Positions 30,001 to 33,000 of a stretch of DNA of 64,000 nucleotides are shown in pieces. The DNA is from Nitrosopumilus sp. (lineage in GTDB: Archaea; Thermoproteota; Nitrososphaeria; Nitrososphaerales; Nitrosopumilaceae). The number at the start of each line of letters is the position of its first letter. Within the stretch, counting starts at the first letter, position 1. The position numbers are program-made. Where the stretch lies: the NCBI GenBank assembly GCA_965205425.1, contig CBDBGZ010000009.1, forward strand, positions 224,001 to 288,000. Reading direction: 5' to 3'.

Positions 30001-33000
30001 CTCCATATGAAATAGGAAATAGTTTTCCGTCAATACTAACACTGCATGGTTTTTCTAAACTCTGATGAGTTGCATATGCGGTAGTAACAACAATCGGAAT
30101 GAATAATAGTAAAAATAACAAGAGAATAATTTTCACAGTTTCAAATGAAAATTAAGTGTAAAAAGGAAGAATTTAGAAAATAACCCATCAAGATATTGAA
30201 ACTTTGCCTGATTTTTCTATGGTAAATGTTACAGTATCTGGAATGTTAAGGAATTGATCTAAAGGTTTTGGTAATGTCATCTTGACATCTTTTCCAACTC
30301 GGTTAACACTTACTGTAAATTTTGTTGCACCTTCTTTCCATTTTGGCATACATAACAGTACAAATACTACTATTTATATTCTACCTAATACATAACGTTA
30401 ACATATTCTACCTAATAATTAATATTTGTGGGCCAGTAATTCGAAGGTCGAATCTCTAGTCGTCAACTAGAAGGCTCGGGTTCGATTCCCGACTGGTCCA
30501 CGTAATGTTTATTTAGAAATGATATGTAGAATAATTAGTTGACGACTAGATGTTAGTTCGCCTTTGAACTAGCCTTTTTTCTATTTTCTGAAAATTTTAG
30601 AGGGGTTTAACATCTAGGCATAATTTCAAAAAATCATTACACCATTGAGTTTTTGTGCGTAAGTAAATTTTGTGACAATATCGTATTGTGCCATCGGGCT
30701 GAAATGAGGTTTGATTGTTCCATTTACGAACAAAAGCTAAACCCGCCCTGAATTTTGGGAATTGTAAAAAATTCACATCATGCCTGATGTGAATACAATA
30801 ATTGAGGGGGTGAATATTTACGCATAAGTTTTTTCCAATTTTACATATTTGATAGGGGGTTTAGCTTTTAGGCACAAATTTGGTCATTAACAAATTTTAT
30901 TAATTCATCATGTAATAATAAATTAGAAACACGTCAGGAATGGGATTCGAACCCATGAAACCGATGTACTCAGCAAAGAGATTTTCAATCTCTCGGTATT
31001 ACCACTAACCGATCCTGACGAGTTTTCTTCTAAAAATTCCTATTTAAGAATTGGTTCTGATGTATTCAAGTGAATAAAATCTTAGAATATTCAACCTTTA
31101 AAAAATAGAAATTTGTATTATTATTACGGTTCCGTTGGTGTAATGCTGACTATGAGACTTGGAAACAAGAGCTCAGGGATCGACTTTATCTTTCAACATT
31201 TCAATATATGAAAAAATAACTAATATTGTAAAATTTCATAAAACCTCTATTTCTCATTATTCTCACAATGGTCAGCCGTGACTTTGTAATTTTGGATTAT
31301 TCACACCAAAGAAAGTACAGAAATCATACATGTGCAAAATGCGGAGACTTATTTAGTATAGGTGATGCTGTCCATACTCAAAGAACAAAACGTTCTAAGA
31401 GAATATGTCACAAACAATGTTGGGAGTCAATGTATACCCCAGATCATAAGTCTTTTCAATTTATTGTTCTTGCAAAATACTGATACATATTCAAATTAAA
31501 TTTGTGGGTTCTAAAATATTCCATAACTGTATGTCTCATCTCATGAATAGATTCATAAAATTCTGATTCAACATTAACATGTTTGCACTGTCTCCAAATC
31601 TCTTCAATCATACTCAAATGTGGAGAACCTCTTGGAAGATATGCCAGTTTGACATCTTTGTTTTTACGCAGATATTCTTTTACATCATTAGCTTTGTGTT
31701 GCGGTGCTCTATCGACGATAACAAATATTTTCCCGAATTTTTTACGAGCTGCCTCCAAATAATCCATAAATGCAATTGAGTTAAATTTTTCATACGATCT
31801 AAAAAAACTTTGATTATCATCAGTCATCATTCCATAAACCAAAAATCTTTGGTGCGATCCTCTCCAACGTACAATCATTCGTTGGTGTACATCTGTCCAG
31901 TATTTTTTACCAAGACGTACATCGTCTACAAATACAGACTCGTCTTGGATGAATACTGTAAAACCTTTCTTTTTTGCCTTTTCTATGCGTGAAATGATGC
32001 GGTTTTTCCACTTGCGGCACACATCCTTGGATGCTGCTCGCACATGTAGTTTTTGTGGAACCTTTGGTTTTAGATTCCATTTGTGCATCAAACGACGCAC
32101 ATGAGTGATATGATATGTAATGCGTGTTCTGTAAAATATGAATTGTATCAGTTTTTTTTGGAGTCATGCCGTCTGAAATTTTCTTAAATGTACGCTCTAT
32201 TTTTTGTAATGCTTTATGTGAGATTAATGGCGGACGGCCAGAACGAGGGGGGGTCCTCCAGACCCTCCAATCCGTATTTTTCAAATGAATCAAGCCAATT
32301 CCTTACAGAATTGCATGTACAAAACATTTGGTTGGCAGTTTCAGCAATTGTGGATTCGTTGATTTTAATCTTACACATTGCATGCAGTCTTTCCTTTTTC
32401 TTACCGTACTTTTCTTTTTTGTAGGCCTGGAGTAACTCGTCATTTGTGATGTCCATGAAATTATTTCTAACTACTGATCAAAAAGTATTGCTATTTGTTT
32501 TGAAAAATTGCAAAGAATTATGCTCCGAGGTATATGTCTGGATGAGTCAACAAACAAGATAGCTCCAAATATCAAAAAAGGCTGGTATCTAAAAGGAAAA
32601 AATACACAAACCAAAATCAACTATATAGTTTAGGCATATAAATTCTGAATAAACTGTCAAGTATTTTAACCCAAAAGATCTAGATCGTAGAATCAATTCA
32701 TGAAACCATGTCAAAGAGTACAAGACAATCCAAGGTTTCCTCTGGGAATCAATTCATGAAAGGTACAAGCATTAATTTTTTAAGAAAAACATGCAAGAAT
32801 GAAAAAAATGCAAAAGCAAAGATAAGACTAAAGGCTGCAATTTTACGCAAACAAGACATGAGATATTCTCAAATATGCATCAGTCTTGATATCATACCAT
32901 CAACTCTTAGTAATTGGTTAAACCAAATGAACCGAGAAGGAATATCTGCATCACGCCGCAAGAAATATTCTGGTTCTAGATGTTTCTTAGATAAAAAACA

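What a model noticed while it worked through the whole genome (the two positions that open the first line are those of the whole stretch)
30430..30501. tRNA genes with alanine acceptor identity but Asp/Phe/Leu anticodons
Seven extra 72-75 nt tRNA genes (C9:254430-254501, C9:711260-711332, C9:454069-454140, C2:54916-54987, C8:191679-191753, C4:165846-165917, C4:166055-166126) fold as clean class-I cloverleaves and all carry the acceptor end of this archaeon's own tRNA-Ala (G1-C72, G2-C71, G3.U70, A73), yet have anticodons GUC (Asp, 3), GAA (Phe, 2) or AAG (Leu, 2). Boldest reading: they are natural mistranslator tRNAs charged by AlaRS, which ignores the anticodon, and put Ala at Asp, Phe or Leu codons; they are accessory, multi-copy genes of large-genome Nitrosopumilus. 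This would be the first natural identity-mismatched tRNA family in Archaea.
Evidence so far: ARAGORN plus Rfam tRNA 46-65 bits (rna.tsv; calls 29, 31). The three canonical tRNA-Ala end in the same GGGCCGG..CCGGTCC-AC. Alignment of 7 own + 3 relatives: G1, G2, G3, U70, C71, C72, A73 invariant while pairs 4-7 co-vary; 96.7% of cells paired, 14 of 21 pairs with changes on both sides, 0 of 500 shuffles reach the covariation score. Covariance model R1: exactly these 7 score above tRNA-Ala in the own genome; in 150 other Nitrosopumilus genomes 72-nt hits above the canonical tRNA-Ala score (62.8 bits) occur in at least 12, mostly 1.7-2.6 Mb. 20 of 20 fetched have GGG..UCC, 19 of 20 A73, anticodons GAA 8, AAG/GAG/CAG 10, GUC 2, never NGC. 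Outside the genus, 7 of 7 top hits fetched are ordin [...]
(Added by a program. Inside this text positions count along the whole contig: contig position 224,001 is position 1 of the stretch shown here. "Call 12" and the like, gene names such as g00115 and contig names such as C1 are that model's own, and its searches are not shown. The text may have been shortened before it was handed on; [...] marks where a part breaks off. The agent that wrote the report below was given it as the finding of a first reader that could run no searches.)

Follow-up and report, generated by a model that had tools for sequence, protein, structure and literature searches.

The report
Alanine-type tRNA with its own antisense RNA
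An accessory tRNA gene that looks chargeable with alanine but reads an aspartate codon sits beside a tiny gene for an RNA exactly complementary to its anticodon arm, and this co-evolving RNA pair, repeated in transposon-rich islands of related archaea, may be an all-RNA poison-and-antidote module.

Summary
Window 30430-30501 is a well-formed tRNA with the acceptor end of this genome's tRNA-Ala (G1-C72, G2-C71, G3.U70, C4-G69, A73) and a GUC (Asp) anticodon. It is one of 7 in the genome and of 45 distinct ones that I collected in the family.

About 35 nt downstream (30536-30580) lies a ~45-nt small-RNA gene with four parts:
- a TATA-like box;
- a 15-nt 5' end antisense to the tRNA's own positions 27-41;
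- a hairpin;
- a T-run.

Such a partner stands at a fixed offset, either tandem or divergent, for 35 of 36 odd tRNAs in the genus. It co-varies with the anticodon arm: 97.8% of cells are paired and G.U is enriched among the exceptions. No canonical tRNA reaches a partner score of 11 of 12. No protein gene is shared between loci, only transposases.

Small RNAs often survive beside broken tRNAs, whereas intact tRNAs almost never lack their small RNA. My best reading (about 0.4) is a mistranslating tRNA held in check by an antisense antidote, acting as an addiction or defence module. Charging, expression and toxicity are all untested.

The parts
30430..30501 (+). tRNA gene with the alanine-type acceptor end (G1-C72, G2-C71, G3.U70, C4-G69, A73 at 30500, then C) and a GUC (Asp) anticodon at 30462-30464. 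The anticodon loop is UCGUCAA, with C33 and A37.
   Evidence: ARAGORN; Rfam tRNA 52.4 bits; sequence; covariation of the family; 84.8 bits with model R1 against 64.4 for canonical tRNA-Ala.
30455..30469 (+). The part of the tRNA (positions 27-41) that the neighbouring small RNA is complementary to. It covers the 5' strand of the anticodon stem, the whole loop, and three bases of the 3' strand.
   Evidence: Exact 15-nt complement at 30536-30550. Across 33 modules, positions 28-41 are paired in 91-100% of modules, falling to 55% at position 42 and 36% at position 43.
30508..30515 (+). A/T-rich TATA-like box (TTTATTTA), 28 nt upstream of the guide. I take it to be the promoter of the small RNA.
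   Evidence: Read from the sequence. A strict TTWAWWWW box starts 27-35 nt before the 12-nt guide core in 22 of 33 modules. By eye the other 11 have similar A/T-rich boxes at the same place, always directly after CCAC-A. Promoter function is inferred, not shown.
30536..30550 (+). Guide: the 15-nt 5' segment of the small RNA (TAGTTGACGACTAGA), antisense to tRNA positions 41-27.
   Evidence: Its only perfect targets in the 2.2-Mb genome are this tRNA and, trivially, the opposite strand of the guide itself.
30551..30574 (+). Handle: the hairpin GUUAGUUC-GCCUUU-GAACUAGC followed by C. It ends in the CUAGCC motif shared by most module subtypes.
   Evidence: RNAfold gives -8.9 kcal/mol. The same motif is found in 8 of 151 genus genomes. 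The 3' motif CTAGCC or GCTAATCTC recurs across subtypes.
30575..30580 (+). T6 run, which I take to be the terminator of the small RNA and probably also of read-through from the tRNA gene.
   Evidence: A T-run of 4-8 follows the handle in 33 of 33 modules listed. That oligo-T terminates archaeal transcription is recalled knowledge, not tested here.

Best explanation
The element is a two-gene, RNA-only module.

Gene 1 is a true tRNA. Its first four acceptor pairs and discriminator copy the host's tRNA-Ala, so the single, anticodon-blind AlaRS should load it with alanine. Its anticodon reads Asp codons; in sister copies it reads Phe, Leu, Ile or Arg codons. Left free, it would put Ala at those codons and damage the proteome.

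Gene 2 is a separately promoted small RNA of about 45 nt. Its 5' 15 nt pair with positions 27-41 of that one tRNA. Pairing opens the anticodon stem and buries the anticodon, so the tRNA cannot decode.

Together they would behave like a toxin and its antisense antidote. The tRNA would be stable and the small RNA short-lived. Loss of the locus, or a shut-off of transcription such as during infection, would free the tRNA. That would stabilise the transposon-rich islands the modules sit in, or abort infections. Each module has its own arm-and-guide 'key', so several can coexist in one genome.

Shown here:
- the tRNA anatomy and its covariation;
- the partner gene, its fixed position and its co-variation with the anticodon arm;
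- the lack of any shared protein gene;
- the asymmetry of decay between the two genes.

Inferred, not shown: transcription of both RNAs, alanylation, decoding, toxicity, relative stabilities, and any benefit to the island.
For: 1. The tRNA is under selection as a tRNA. 96.3% of cells pair, 16 of 21 pairs have double changes, and G18, G19 and T-loop bases are invariant.

2. Alanine identity fits.
- G3.U70, G1-C72 and G2-C71 hold in 18 of 18, C4-G69 in 16 of 18 and A73 in 17 of 18, while pairs 5-7 vary freely.
- In the own genome G3.U70 occurs only in tRNA-Ala and these genes (10 of 59 calls).
- There is one AlaRS gene.
- G3.U70 is the conserved alanine determinant, and AlaRS ignores the anticodon (PMC9976931 passages; PMC11415595 passages).

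3. The partner RNA is specific to its own tRNA.
- The complement of the tRNA's own arm (12-nt core) scores at least 11 of 12 in 28 of 36 distinct genus members.
- Non-cognate arms reach that score in 2 of 1148 tests, and shuffled arms in 0 of 1080.
- The partner sits at a fixed offset in 35 of 36.
- Of 18 genus members found by the tRNA model alone, 17 have it. Of 9 outside the genus, 7 have it at the usual offset and 1 at -218.

4. The pairing is selected at the RNA level. Over positions 28-41 in 33 modules there are 426 Watson-Crick, 26 G.U and 10 unpaired cells out of 462. G.U makes up 26 of the 36 non-Watson-Crick cells (binomial p 1.7e-6 against 0.33).

5. Two adjacent own paralogs differ at 4 loop bases, and their guides differ at exactly the 4 complementary bases.

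6. Controls are clean. Among 46 other tRNA calls in the own genome, none reaches 11 and the maximum is 10.5. Eight canonical tRNA-Ala loci of other genera reach at most 8.5. Two of those eight loci are from unpublished genomes; without them the count is 6 of 6.

7. The anticodon matters beyond pairing.
- A37 is present in 32 of 33 modules.
- 34 of 36 genus anticodons are Phe, Leu(CUN) or Asp, and none is NGC.
- The codons read are frequent here, and the A34 forms match the common U-ending codons (GAT 49.8 against GAC 11.1 per 1000; CTT 15.6 against CTC 4.5).

8. The two genes decay asymmetrically. Of 27 small-RNA genes found by handle motif outside the own genome, only 11 keep an intact cognate tRNA. 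Of 27 odd tRNAs found by tRNA model, 25 keep a partner (Fisher p 1e-4). The one genus tRNA without a partner has a repeated element abutting its first base.

9. No protein gene is shared across loci. Only IS5/IS4, IS630, IS110, IS6 and IS66 transposases recur, plus one TraG-like gene.

10. tRNA-Ala with GAA or CAG anticodons slows yeast growth (PMC10543346, section 12). Natural mistranslators often lack U33 (PMC11415595 passage). Here 8 of 33 modules have C33, including the window's.
Against: - No expression data of any kind: no listed run is on record as RNA.
- Aminoacylation is untested. The review's table holds no experimentally characterised determinants for archaeal tRNA-Ala.
- Phe-anticodon members keep A73 and G34-A35-A36 and may be charged by PheRS. 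Asp-anticodon members keep GUC and may be partly charged by AspRS.
- C33 in a quarter of members, and the G14/C21 D-loops that can form a 6-bp D-stem, may weaken decoding. A poor decoder is a poor toxin.
- Seven modules in one genome is a heavy load if each is truly toxic.
- The decay asymmetry rests on related, non-independent loci and on my judgement of what counts as 'intact'.
- Short repeats 50-110 nt apart could be kept alike partly by gene conversion, though that would not give the G.U bias.
- The hairpin has no alignable consensus across subtypes: RNAalifold predicts 0 pairs on 37 small RNAs.
- The cofold energies (median -19.6 kcal/mol cognate against 0.0 non-cognate) ignore tRNA tertiary structure.
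- Neither handle motif was found in viral contigs, so I could not show a link to viruses.
Confidence: 0.4

Rival explanations
1. Regulated, beneficial mistranslation. The tRNA does insert Ala at Asp, Phe or Leu codons, but as a tunable stress response that diversifies the proteome, or as recoding for island genes. The small RNA is the dial that sets how much tRNA is free. It is not an antidote to a poison.
For: This shares all the anatomical evidence with the best explanation. Natural mistranslator tRNAs in bacteria and yeasts are argued to be useful (PMC10404621, abstract start in the listing only; PMC11415595 passages). Non-U33 is seen in such tRNAs and in 8 of 33 modules here.
Against: - The substitutions are radical (F, L, D, I or R to A), not conservative.
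- The modules are patchy: 15 of 151 genus genomes carry one.
- They sit among transposases and are often broken.
- Orphan small RNAs without a tRNA are common: 16 of 27.
- Multiple orthogonal copies in one genome are hard to explain as one physiological dial.
Confidence: 0.2
2. Guide-RNA-directed modification or processing. The small RNA guides a host ribonucleoprotein to the anticodon loop of its partner tRNA to modify or cut it, as archaeal C/D-box small RNAs guide 2'-O-methylation of tRNAs. The pair would then be a tRNA with its private maturation guide.
For: The layout is guide-like: a 15-nt guide at the 5' end abuts a hairpin 'handle'. The edge of pairing is fixed at tRNA position 27. The 3' motif CUAGCC or GCUAAUCUC is conserved and could be a protein site. 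That archaeal C/D small RNAs target tRNA anticodon loops is recalled, not checked here.
Against: - No C box (RUGAUGA) or D box (CUGA) flanks the guide (sequence).
- A permissive Rfam scan of 30380-31100 gives no C/D or other family over 30536-30580.
- No protein gene is shared by the loci.
- Pairing covers the whole loop plus both stem strands, which is more than a modification guide needs.
- Orphan guides persist in genomes with no odd tRNA at all: G137, G113, G131 and G133.
Confidence: 0.12
3. A role outside translation. The tRNA-shaped RNA would be a decoy or sponge (for an anticodon nuclease, a virus factor, or the small RNA itself), or an aminoacyl donor outside the ribosome. Its alanine-type end would serve recognition by processing enzymes or another protein rather than decoding.
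For: C33 in 8 of 33 modules, together with the unusual G14/C21 D-loops, hints at relaxed decoding constraints. G3.U70 is also read by proteins other than AlaRS, namely DTD and AlaX (PMC9976931 and PMC11415595 passages).
Against: - A37 is kept in 32 of 33 modules although the guide could compensate any base there.
- Anticodons are restricted to a few sense codons: 34 of 36 are Phe, Leu or Asp.
- The T-loop and G18-G19 are kept as in working tRNAs.
- A second accessory family in the same islands pairs a serine-type body with a Phe anticodon. AlaRS and SerRS are the two synthetases that ignore the anticodon, which points to charging and decoding as the designed activity.
Confidence: 0.13
4. Ordinary extra isoacceptors. 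The genes are charged according to their anticodons by AspRS or PheRS and simply boost decoding for mobile-element genes. The alanine-like acceptor would be inherited baggage, and the nearby complement would be a by-product of duplication.
For: Phe-anticodon members have A73 and G34-A35-A36, which are 4 of the 6 archaeal Phe determinants in Table 1 of PMC9976931. Mobile elements often carry tRNA genes (recalled).
Against: - The first four acceptor pairs and A73 are held fixed to the tRNA-Ala pattern while everything else varies.
- The window's tRNA lacks G73, G10 and C38, which are determinants known from bacteria and eukaryotes.
- Leu-anticodon members have no large variable region.
- The complement shows G.U-biased covariation and carries its own promoter-like box, hairpin and T-run in two different gene arrangements. 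A duplication by-product would not.
Confidence: 0.1
5. Decaying tRNA-derived repeats without function.
For: Many copies are truncated or interrupted and lie in insertion-sequence graveyards. One own copy has an acceptor mismatch.
Against: There are compensatory changes in all four helices. Guide and arm co-vary across 33 modules. The architecture is conserved across four genera.
Confidence: 0.05

Closest known systems
tRNA-Ala with non-alanine anticodons: yeast CUG-Ala clade tRNA-Ala(CAG), human tRNA-Ala anticodon variants, and engineered yeast tRNA-Ala variants
   Same: These carry alanine acceptor identity (G3.U70) joined to a foreign anticodon, which is possible because AlaRS does not read the anticodon. 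GAA and CAG versions slow yeast growth (PMC11415595 passages; PMC10543346 abstract and section 12).
   Different: Those are single genes in eukaryotes without any dedicated partner RNA. Here the family is archaeal, multi-copy, borne on mobile-element islands, has several anticodons, and each copy has a co-varying antisense small-RNA gene. Charging is not shown here.
Bacterial mistranslator tRNAs (tRNAProA family of Streptomyces and relatives)
   Same: These are natural, accessory tRNAs whose identity elements and anticodon disagree (PMC10404621, seen as search listing and abstract start only). An unusual base 33 occurs in natural mistranslators (PMC11415595 passage).
   Different: The identity differs (proline, not alanine) and the domain is bacteria. 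As I recall, some pair with a dedicated synthetase variant. No antisense RNA partner is described in what I saw.
Type I toxin-antitoxin systems (antisense RNA antitoxins such as hok/sok; recalled)
   Same: A small antisense RNA is encoded next to, and base-pairs with, the RNA of a harmful gene. The modules are selfish, multi-copy, often decayed, and keep orphan antitoxins.
   Different: There the target is an mRNA for a small toxic protein. Here the target would be the toxic molecule itself, a tRNA, and no protein is encoded. Toxicity is not shown here.
Type VIII toxin-antitoxin systems with RNA toxins (CreTA)
   Same: Both toxin and antitoxin are RNAs, and the toxin acts on translation through tRNA biology: CreT sequesters a tRNA (PMC8501985, PMC9458426, titles and abstract starts in the listing only).
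   Different: CreA is a CRISPR-like guide that represses transcription through Cascade, and CreT is an mRNA-like RNA that soaks up a rare tRNA. Here the candidate toxin is a tRNA and the antidote pairs with it directly. I did not test for CRISPR repeats.
Archaeal C/D-box small RNAs that guide methylation of tRNA anticodon loops (recalled)
   Same: These are short archaeal RNAs with a stretch of 10 nt or more complementary to a tRNA anticodon arm.
   Different: There are no C/D boxes, no Rfam match, and one private guide per private tRNA. Pairing spans the whole loop and both stem strands.
T-box leaders of bacteria (recalled)
   Same: An RNA reads a tRNA by pairing with its anticodon.
   Different: T-boxes are mRNA leaders that pair with 3 bases plus the acceptor end and control a downstream gene. 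Here 15 nt pair, the RNA ends at a T-run, and no downstream gene is conserved.

Membership tests
tRNA (Rfam RF00005) | Cloverleaf with four helices supported by covariation | tested here: met
   96.3% of cells paired, 16 of 21 pairs changed on both sides, 0 of 500 shuffles reach the score.
tRNA (Rfam RF00005) | Score above the curated threshold; conserved U8, G18-G19 and T-loop bases | tested here: met
   52.4 bits against a gathering score of 29; invariant columns in alignment A1.
Substrate of AlaRS (alanine identity) | G3.U70 wobble pair | tested here: met
   18 of 18 aligned members. In the own genome it is found only in tRNA-Ala and these genes.
Substrate of AlaRS (alanine identity) | A73 and the G1-C72, G2-C71, C4-G69 context of the host's own tRNA-Ala | tested here: met
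   A73 in 17 of 18; pairs 1 and 2 in 18 of 18; pair 4 in 16 of 18; canonical tRNA-Ala sequences.
Substrate of AlaRS (alanine identity) | Actual alanylation by the organism's AlaRS | not testable with these tools
   One AlaRS gene is present. There is no biochemical test, and the review's table holds no archaeal data for Ala.
Canonical tRNA-Ala | NGC anticodon | tested here: not met
   0 of 36 genus members and 0 of 9 outside the genus have NGC.
tRNA-Asp identity (determinants known from bacteria and eukaryotes) | G34-U35-C36 anticodon | tested here: met
   GTC at 30462-30464.
tRNA-Asp identity (determinants known from bacteria and eukaryotes) | G73, G10, C38 | tested here: not met
   The window's tRNA has A73, A10 and A38, whereas the genome's canonical tRNA-Asp has G73, G10 and C38. 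Determinants are from Table 1 of PMC9976931, which has no archaeal data.
Natural mistranslator tRNAs | Identity elements of one synthetase combined with the anticodon of another amino acid | tested here: met
Natural mistranslator tRNAs | Demonstrated misincorporation | not testable with these tools
   No proteomic or charging data.
Type I / type VIII toxin-antitoxin (RNA antitoxin) | Adjacent antisense RNA gene complementary to the toxin RNA | tested here: met
   A 15-nt complement with its own TATA-like box, hairpin and T-run. 35 of 36 genus members have one; non-cognate arms reach 11 of 12 in 2 of 1148 tests.
Type I / type VIII toxin-antitoxin (RNA antitoxin) | Toxicity of the toxin alone, rescue by the antitoxin, and an unstable antitoxin | not testable with these tools
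   Only indirect evidence: 16 of 27 small RNAs lack an intact tRNA, against 2 of 27 tRNAs that lack a small RNA.
Type I toxin-antitoxin | The toxin is a small protein translated from the targeted mRNA | tested here: not met
   The target is a tRNA. No ORF of 50 aa or more overlaps 30430-30596.
Archaeal C/D-box guide small RNA | C (RUGAUGA) and D (CUGA) boxes bracketing the guide | tested here: not met
   Neither box flanks the guide at 30536-30580, and there is no C/D match there in a permissive Rfam scan.
IS110 bridge RNA | A ~150-200-nt two-loop RNA encoded next to an IS110 transposase (recalled definition) | tested here: not met
   The small RNA is about 45 nt with one hairpin. An IS110 transposase lies within the fetched flanks of only 6 loci.

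The most novel reading that the evidence does not exclude
This would be an all-RNA toxin-antitoxin system in which the toxin is a tRNA. An alanine-accepting tRNA with an Asp, Phe, Leu, Ile or Arg anticodon poisons the proteome by alanine substitution. It is neutralised by a private antisense RNA that masks its anticodon. Arm-and-guide pairs diversify like lock and key, so many orthogonal modules can stabilise mobile islands or abort infections in ammonia-oxidising archaea. A serine-type tRNA family with a Phe anticodon in the same islands would be a second weapon built on the same principle of exploiting a synthetase that does not read the anticodon.
Probability: 0.35. Interest if true: 0.95.

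Novelty: categorically new. Interest (0 to 1): 0.86.

Why it matters
If the reading holds, deliberate mistranslation would be a weapon or addiction device, not only an error or a stress response. It would add a kind of selfish module that needs no protein of its own, only the host's AlaRS and ribosome.

It would be the first natural family of identity-mismatched tRNAs in Archaea. My literature searches and the passages I read from a 2024 review on tRNA mistranslation mention none.

Even without the toxin reading, a dedicated antisense RNA gene that co-evolves with the anticodon arm of one tRNA is a new way of controlling a tRNA.

The lock-and-key pairs offer ready-made orthogonal parts for switching a tRNA on and off.

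The element also matters for annotation. These genes are called tRNA-Asp, tRNA-Phe and tRNA-Leu by standard tools, and they inflate the apparent tRNA sets of abundant marine ammonia oxidisers.

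Tried and rejected
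- **Expression.** The look-up of sequencing runs listed no RNA holder. The four runs I laid are DNA-type contigs, so they say nothing about transcripts, ends or CCA tails.
- **Consensus structure of the small RNA.** RNAalifold on 37 small RNAs predicts 0 pairs. Hairpins are predicted one by one: 31 of 33 have one or more pairs and 2 have none. They do not align across subtypes.
- **Shared protein partner.** Clustering of ORFs of 70 aa or more around all loci gave only transposase families, one TraG-like protein and small ORFs with no family. In the window the neighbours are IS110, IS4/5 and IS630 fragments and a GIY-YIG ORF.
- **IS110 bridge RNA.** Rejected on size, shape, and presence next to only 6 loci.
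- **C/D-box guide and other Rfam families.** None lies over the small RNA. A weak YrlA hit (20.7 bits against a gathering score of 69) is at chance level.
- **Bulge-helix-bulge splicing motif formed in trans.** Rejected, because the duplex is continuous without bulges.
- **The tRNA's leader or trailer folding back in cis as the only role of the complement.** Rejected, because the same guide-handle-T-run unit occurs both downstream on the same strand and upstream on the opposite strand.
- **Other genomic targets of the own guides.** There are none without mismatches.
- **Viral origin.** There were 0 matches to either handle motif in viral contigs. The exact handle A occurs in only two loci of one Nitrosopumilus record in the species-genome collection, though that scan may leave out records near the window.
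- **Wider taxonomic spread.** In a class-wide sample, 7 of 7 top hits that I fetched outside the family are ordinary tRNA-Ala.
- **Antisense partner for the second, serine-like family.** None found within 400 nt.
- **Earlier findings of this scan.** Nothing was returned.
- **Rows dropped before counts.**
  - L001, L016 and L018: pattern hits with 2-3 mismatches and no guide, promoter or T-run context.
  - Identical sequences seen in two overlapping or duplicate loci (L030, L031, L035, L037, L042, L058).

Full report
**1. The observation**

The window holds a tRNA gene at 30430-30501 on the + strand. ARAGORN calls it tRNA-Asp(gtc), and Rfam's tRNA model gives 52.4 bits.

Read directly, it has a 7-bp acceptor stem GGGCCAG/CUGGUCC followed by A73. 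That gives G1-C72, G2-C71, G3.U70 and C4-G69. The anticodon loop is UCGUCAA (C33, GUC, A37, A38). The variable loop is 4 nt and the T-loop is normal.

It also holds three canonical tRNA-Ala ending GGGCCGG..CCGGUCC-A-C and normal tRNA-Asp, tRNA-Phe and tRNA-Leu.

Among 59 ARAGORN calls listed, G3.U70 occurs in 10: the three tRNA-Ala and the seven odd genes. The genome has one AlaRS gene.

**2. They are selected tRNAs**

I aligned 18 distinct members, 7 from the own genome and 11 from relatives.
- The cloverleaf pairs 96.3% of cells.
- Sixteen of 21 pairs change on both sides, and no shuffle of 500 reaches the covariation score.
- Slid controls pair only 34-46%.
- G1-C72, G2-C71 and G3.U70 never vary (18 of 18). 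C4-G69 holds in 16 of 18 and A73 in 17 of 18. Pairs 5-7 vary freely.
- U8, G18-G19 and the T-loop bases are conserved.

Many members have a D-arm (for example GCGU-GACGGUC-ACGC) that could also form a 6-bp stem with a 3-nt loop. They have G14/C21 in place of the usual A14/A21 (my reading). I could not resolve which form is used.

**3. The new finding: a private antisense RNA gene**

Aligning the seven loci with their flanks showed a short segment next to each tRNA that is complementary to that tRNA's own anticodon arm.

In the window the layout is as follows:

| Feature | Coordinates | Sequence or note |
|---|---|---|
| tRNA target, positions 27-41 | 30455-30469 | anticodon arm |
| TATA-like box | 30508-30515 | TTTATTTA |
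| Guide | 30536-30550 | TAGTTGACGACTAGA, exact complement of the target |
| Hairpin | 30552-30573 | GUUAGUUC-GCCUUU-GAACUAGC |
| T-run | 30575-30580 | T6 |

Four own modules have this tandem layout. In the other three, the same unit (guide, hairpin ending GCUAAUCUC, T-run) lies upstream on the opposite strand. Its guide begins about 50 nt before the tRNA's first base. The genome holds exactly seven such handles for its seven odd tRNAs.

**4. Generality and controls**

*How the loci were found.*
- Searching 151 genus genomes for the two handle motifs found them in 8 and 14 genomes.
- A covariance model of the tRNA scores canonical tRNA-Ala(UGC) at 64.4 bits everywhere. It picks higher-scoring hits of 72-75 nt in the own genome and 14 others.
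- I fetched the 19 regions not already in hand. One was an ordinary tRNA-Ala(CGC).

*Specificity of the partner.*
- Of 36 distinct odd tRNAs in the genus, 35 have a complement of their own arm at a canonical place. Those places are -47 to -54 divergent (one at -94), +107 to +132 tandem, and one on the opposite strand at +115.
- The 12-nt core scores at least 11 of 12 in 28 of 36. Arms of other members that differ at 4 or more bases reach that in 2 of 1148 tests, and shuffled arms in 0 of 1080.

*Negative controls.*
- In the own genome, none of 46 other tRNA calls reaches 11. The maximum is 10.5, once.
- Eight canonical tRNA-Ala loci of other genera reach at most 8.5. Two of these eight come from genomes flagged unpublished; without them the count is 6 of 6.

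*The single genus exception.* L047 has a repeated element abutting its first base. The same element interrupts another module in that genome, so L047 has been cut off from its upstream region.

**5. The pairing is selected as RNA-RNA pairing**

Across 33 modules, complementarity is sharply bounded.
- Positions 28-41 are paired in 91-100% of modules, and position 27 in 82%.
- Position 42 falls to 55% and position 43 to 36%. Elsewhere the figure is 15-64%.
- Over positions 28-41 there are 426 Watson-Crick, 26 G.U and 10 unpaired cells out of 462.
- G.U makes up 26 of the 36 exceptions, far above the third expected from random change (p 1.7e-6). Gene conversion between the two copies would not give that bias.

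Every loop position co-varies, including position 33: U with A in 25 modules and C with G in 8.

Two adjacent own paralogs (C4:165846, AAG; C4:166055, GAA) differ at loop positions 32, 34, 36 and 38. Their guides differ at exactly the four complementary bases.

Each own guide's only perfect target in the genome is its own tRNA.

Cofolding favours the cognate duplex: median -19.6 kcal/mol against 0.0 for non-cognate pairs. That calculation ignores tertiary structure.

**6. Anatomy of the small RNA**

- An A/T-rich box follows CCAC-A directly. That CCAC-A is the tRNA's 3' end in tandem modules and the complement of its 5' end in divergent ones.
- The box starts 27-35 nt before the guide core in 22 of 33 modules by a strict pattern. 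By eye the rest have similar boxes at the same place.
- With the archaeal rule of a TATA box about 26 nt upstream of the start (recalled), transcription should begin at, or within a few nt of, the first paired base. That agrees with the drop in pairing at position 42.
- The RNA would be 38-52 nt long.
- Hairpins are predicted in 31 of 33 modules, at -1.4 to -11.3 kcal/mol. They do not align across subtypes, and RNAalifold predicts no consensus.
- What recurs is the 3' motif CUAGCC or GCUAAUCUC, followed by 4-8 T.
- No Rfam family matches, and there are no C/D boxes.

**7. Context**

The window between about 22 and 34 kb is a field of transposase genes and fragments: IS110, IS4/5 and IS630. The seven own loci share 1.0-1.3-kb repeats.

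Across all fetched loci, the only ORF clusters shared by six or more loci that have a Pfam match are transposases (IS5/IS4, IS630, IS110). One further cluster, shared by six loci, is a 102-aa ORF with no family. IS6 and IS66 transposases and a TraG-like protein each recur in three loci. The module therefore brings no protein of its own.

Modules also occur back to back (own C4; G144), and next to orphan small RNAs of another specificity (G123).

**8. Decay is asymmetric**

Outside the own genome, 27 credible small-RNA genes were found by handle motif, after dropping 3 doubtful pattern hits. Only 11 stand next to an intact cognate tRNA. The other 16 stand alone or next to tRNAs that are damaged in one of these ways:
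- truncated in the D-arm;
- interrupted;
- fused by deletion;
- of another specificity.

Four genomes (G137, G113, G131, G133) keep such small RNAs but have no odd tRNA above the tRNA-Ala score.

Conversely, of 27 odd tRNAs found by the tRNA model alone, 25 keep a partner. Fisher's test gives p = 1e-4. The loci are related, and my calls of 'intact' are judgements, so this figure is descriptive.

The pattern is what a harmful gene with a harmless antidote would leave behind.

**9. The anticodon is not free**

The 36 genus members carry these anticodons, none of them NGC:

| Anticodon | Count |
|---|---|
| GAA | 14 |
| AAG | 8 |
| GUC | 7 |
| GAG | 3 |
| CAG | 1 |
| AUC | 1 |
| GAU | 1 |
| UCU | 1 |

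A37 is kept in 32 of 33 modules, although the guide could follow any change there.

The codons read are common in this A+T-rich genome. The A34 forms, which are unusual for archaea, match the dominant U-ending codons by Watson-Crick pairing (GAT 49.8 against GAC 11.1 per 1000; CTT 15.6 against CTC 4.5; AGA 24.0).

Replacing Phe, Leu, Asp, Ile or Arg by Ala is radical. In yeast, tRNA-Ala with GAA has an intermediate growth cost and CAG is among the largest (PMC10543346, section 12).

C33 in a quarter of members recalls the non-U33 of known natural mistranslators (PMC11415595 passage).

**10. Competing identities**

The determinants below are from Table 1 of PMC9976931.
- Archaeal LeuRS needs A73 and a large variable region, which the Leu-anticodon members lack.
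- Asp determinants known from bacteria and eukaryotes are G73, G10, the anticodon and C38. The window's tRNA has only the anticodon, while the genome's real tRNA-Asp has all of them.
- Archaeal Phe determinants are A73, C13-G22, G20 and GAA. The Phe-anticodon members have A73 and GAA, so PheRS may share them.
- The table has no experimental entry for archaeal tRNA-Ala. The text says the role of G3.U70 is conserved and that archaeal and eukaryotic AlaRS read it in their own way.

**11. Distribution**

- *Genus.* 15 of 151 genomes have at least one intact odd tRNA. Most are 1.7-2.8 Mb.
- *Other genera of the family.*
  - G226 has five modules, all with partners scoring 11.5-12 of 12.
  - G212 and G286 each have a tandem module.
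  - G163 has a partner displaced to -218.
  - In G184 I found no partner.
- *Class-wide sample.* 7 of 7 top hits that I fetched outside the family are ordinary tRNA-Ala.
- *Viral contigs.* No handle motif was found.

**12. A second odd family in the same islands**

A gene of about 90 nt lies 430 nt from the module, on the other strand (30931-31020). ARAGORN calls it tRNA-Phe(gaa).

It has a long variable arm, G73, and an acceptor that can extend to 8 bp (CGUCAGG../..CCUGACG). There are three copies in the genome.

Relatives occur in 10 of 151 genus genomes, and 8 of those also carry the alanine-type modules. All 11 sequences called as tRNA-Phe have GAA (one further neighbouring copy got no clear call), and their acceptors co-vary. 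I found no antisense partner.

A long variable arm with G73 is the serine pattern (bacterial and eukaryotic data). AlaRS and SerRS are the two synthetases that ignore the anticodon.

Two unrelated accessory families, each joining an anticodon-blind identity to a Phe-type anticodon, argue that mischarging is the point of the design.

**13. Verdict**

The most likely mechanism is a mistranslating alanine tRNA masked by a private antisense RNA, acting as an RNA-only addiction or defence module (confidence about 0.4).

The rivals are:
- a physiological dial for useful mistranslation (0.2);
- a guide for modification or cleavage (0.12);
- a role outside translation (0.13);
- ordinary isoacceptors (0.1);
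- junk (0.05).

Nothing here shows transcription, charging or toxicity.

**14. Prior description**

I found no description of such a pair. Full-text searches returned none of the following:
- a paper on a tRNA with a dedicated antisense small RNA;
- a tRNA acting as a toxin;
- identity-mismatched tRNAs in archaea.

The passages I saw of the thaumarchaeal mobile-element survey (PMC6563490) discuss tRNA genes only as integration targets. Supplements of these papers were not read.

Noticed in passing
window 30931-31020 (-); also G000 C8:120792-120883 and C9:901280-901368: This is a second family of accessory tRNAs of about 90 nt. Every copy called as tRNA-Phe has a GAA (Phe) anticodon. They have a long variable arm, G73, an acceptor that can extend to 8 bp, and conserved flanks (aaACU before, GUUUAU after). 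The pattern is serine-like, so they may put Ser at Phe codons. The family occurs in 10 of 151 genus genomes, 8 of which also carry the alanine-type modules, and often lies within a few kb of them. No antisense partner was found.
   Followed up: partly
window 22004-34000: This stretch is a dense field of transposase genes and fragments: IS110 (one intact copy at 22004-23095 and one split copy at 23255-24453), IS4/5 (28866-29729) and IS630 (31456-32100 and 32708-33768). A GIY-YIG nuclease-like ORF lies at 26708-26986. Repeats of 1.0-1.3 kb are shared with the other six module loci.
   Followed up: partly
L011/L035 (G123:C1 about 541136-541330): A Phe-anticodon member is interrupted after its anticodon arm by a 35-nt insert followed by a repeat of tRNA positions 7-43. 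It therefore reads as a disrupted gene beside an intact, still-matching small RNA.
   Followed up: no
L019 (G109:C2 about 18203): The handle of a divergent small RNA abuts the 3' half of a tRNA directly. It looks as if recombination between the guide copy and the tRNA's own arm had deleted everything between them.
   Followed up: no
L005/L011 (G123): Small RNAs of the tandem type with an Asp-type guide (TTGACAGTCAA) stand downstream of Leu- and Phe-anticodon tRNAs. This genome has no Asp-type odd tRNA above the tRNA-Ala score. These are orphan 'antidotes' of another specificity.
   Followed up: partly
G000, several contigs: Several ordinary tRNAs appear twice on different contigs: Glu-CTC (one copy at window 42829-42903), Thr-TGT, Tyr-GTA, Leu-CAA and Ser-TGA. 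Contamination is given as 5.2%. The assembly may hold redundant or second-strain contigs. The seven odd tRNAs are all different sequences, so their count is not inflated by this.
   Followed up: no
window 30468 and 30552 (loose ends): In three public DNA runs, contigs join the 3' half of this tRNA, or the handle, to other upstream sequence. One junction matches the sister module on C9:711 kb. The assembly graphs are tangled by the shared handle. There may also be a further variant with the same 3' half.
   Followed up: no
tRNA D-arms of most members (e.g. window 30439-30453): The D-arm can be drawn as a 6-bp stem with a 3-nt NGG loop, with G14/C21 instead of A14/A21. Compensatory changes between members support this. 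Other members have a normal D-loop. Its meaning for folding or decoding is unknown.
   Followed up: no
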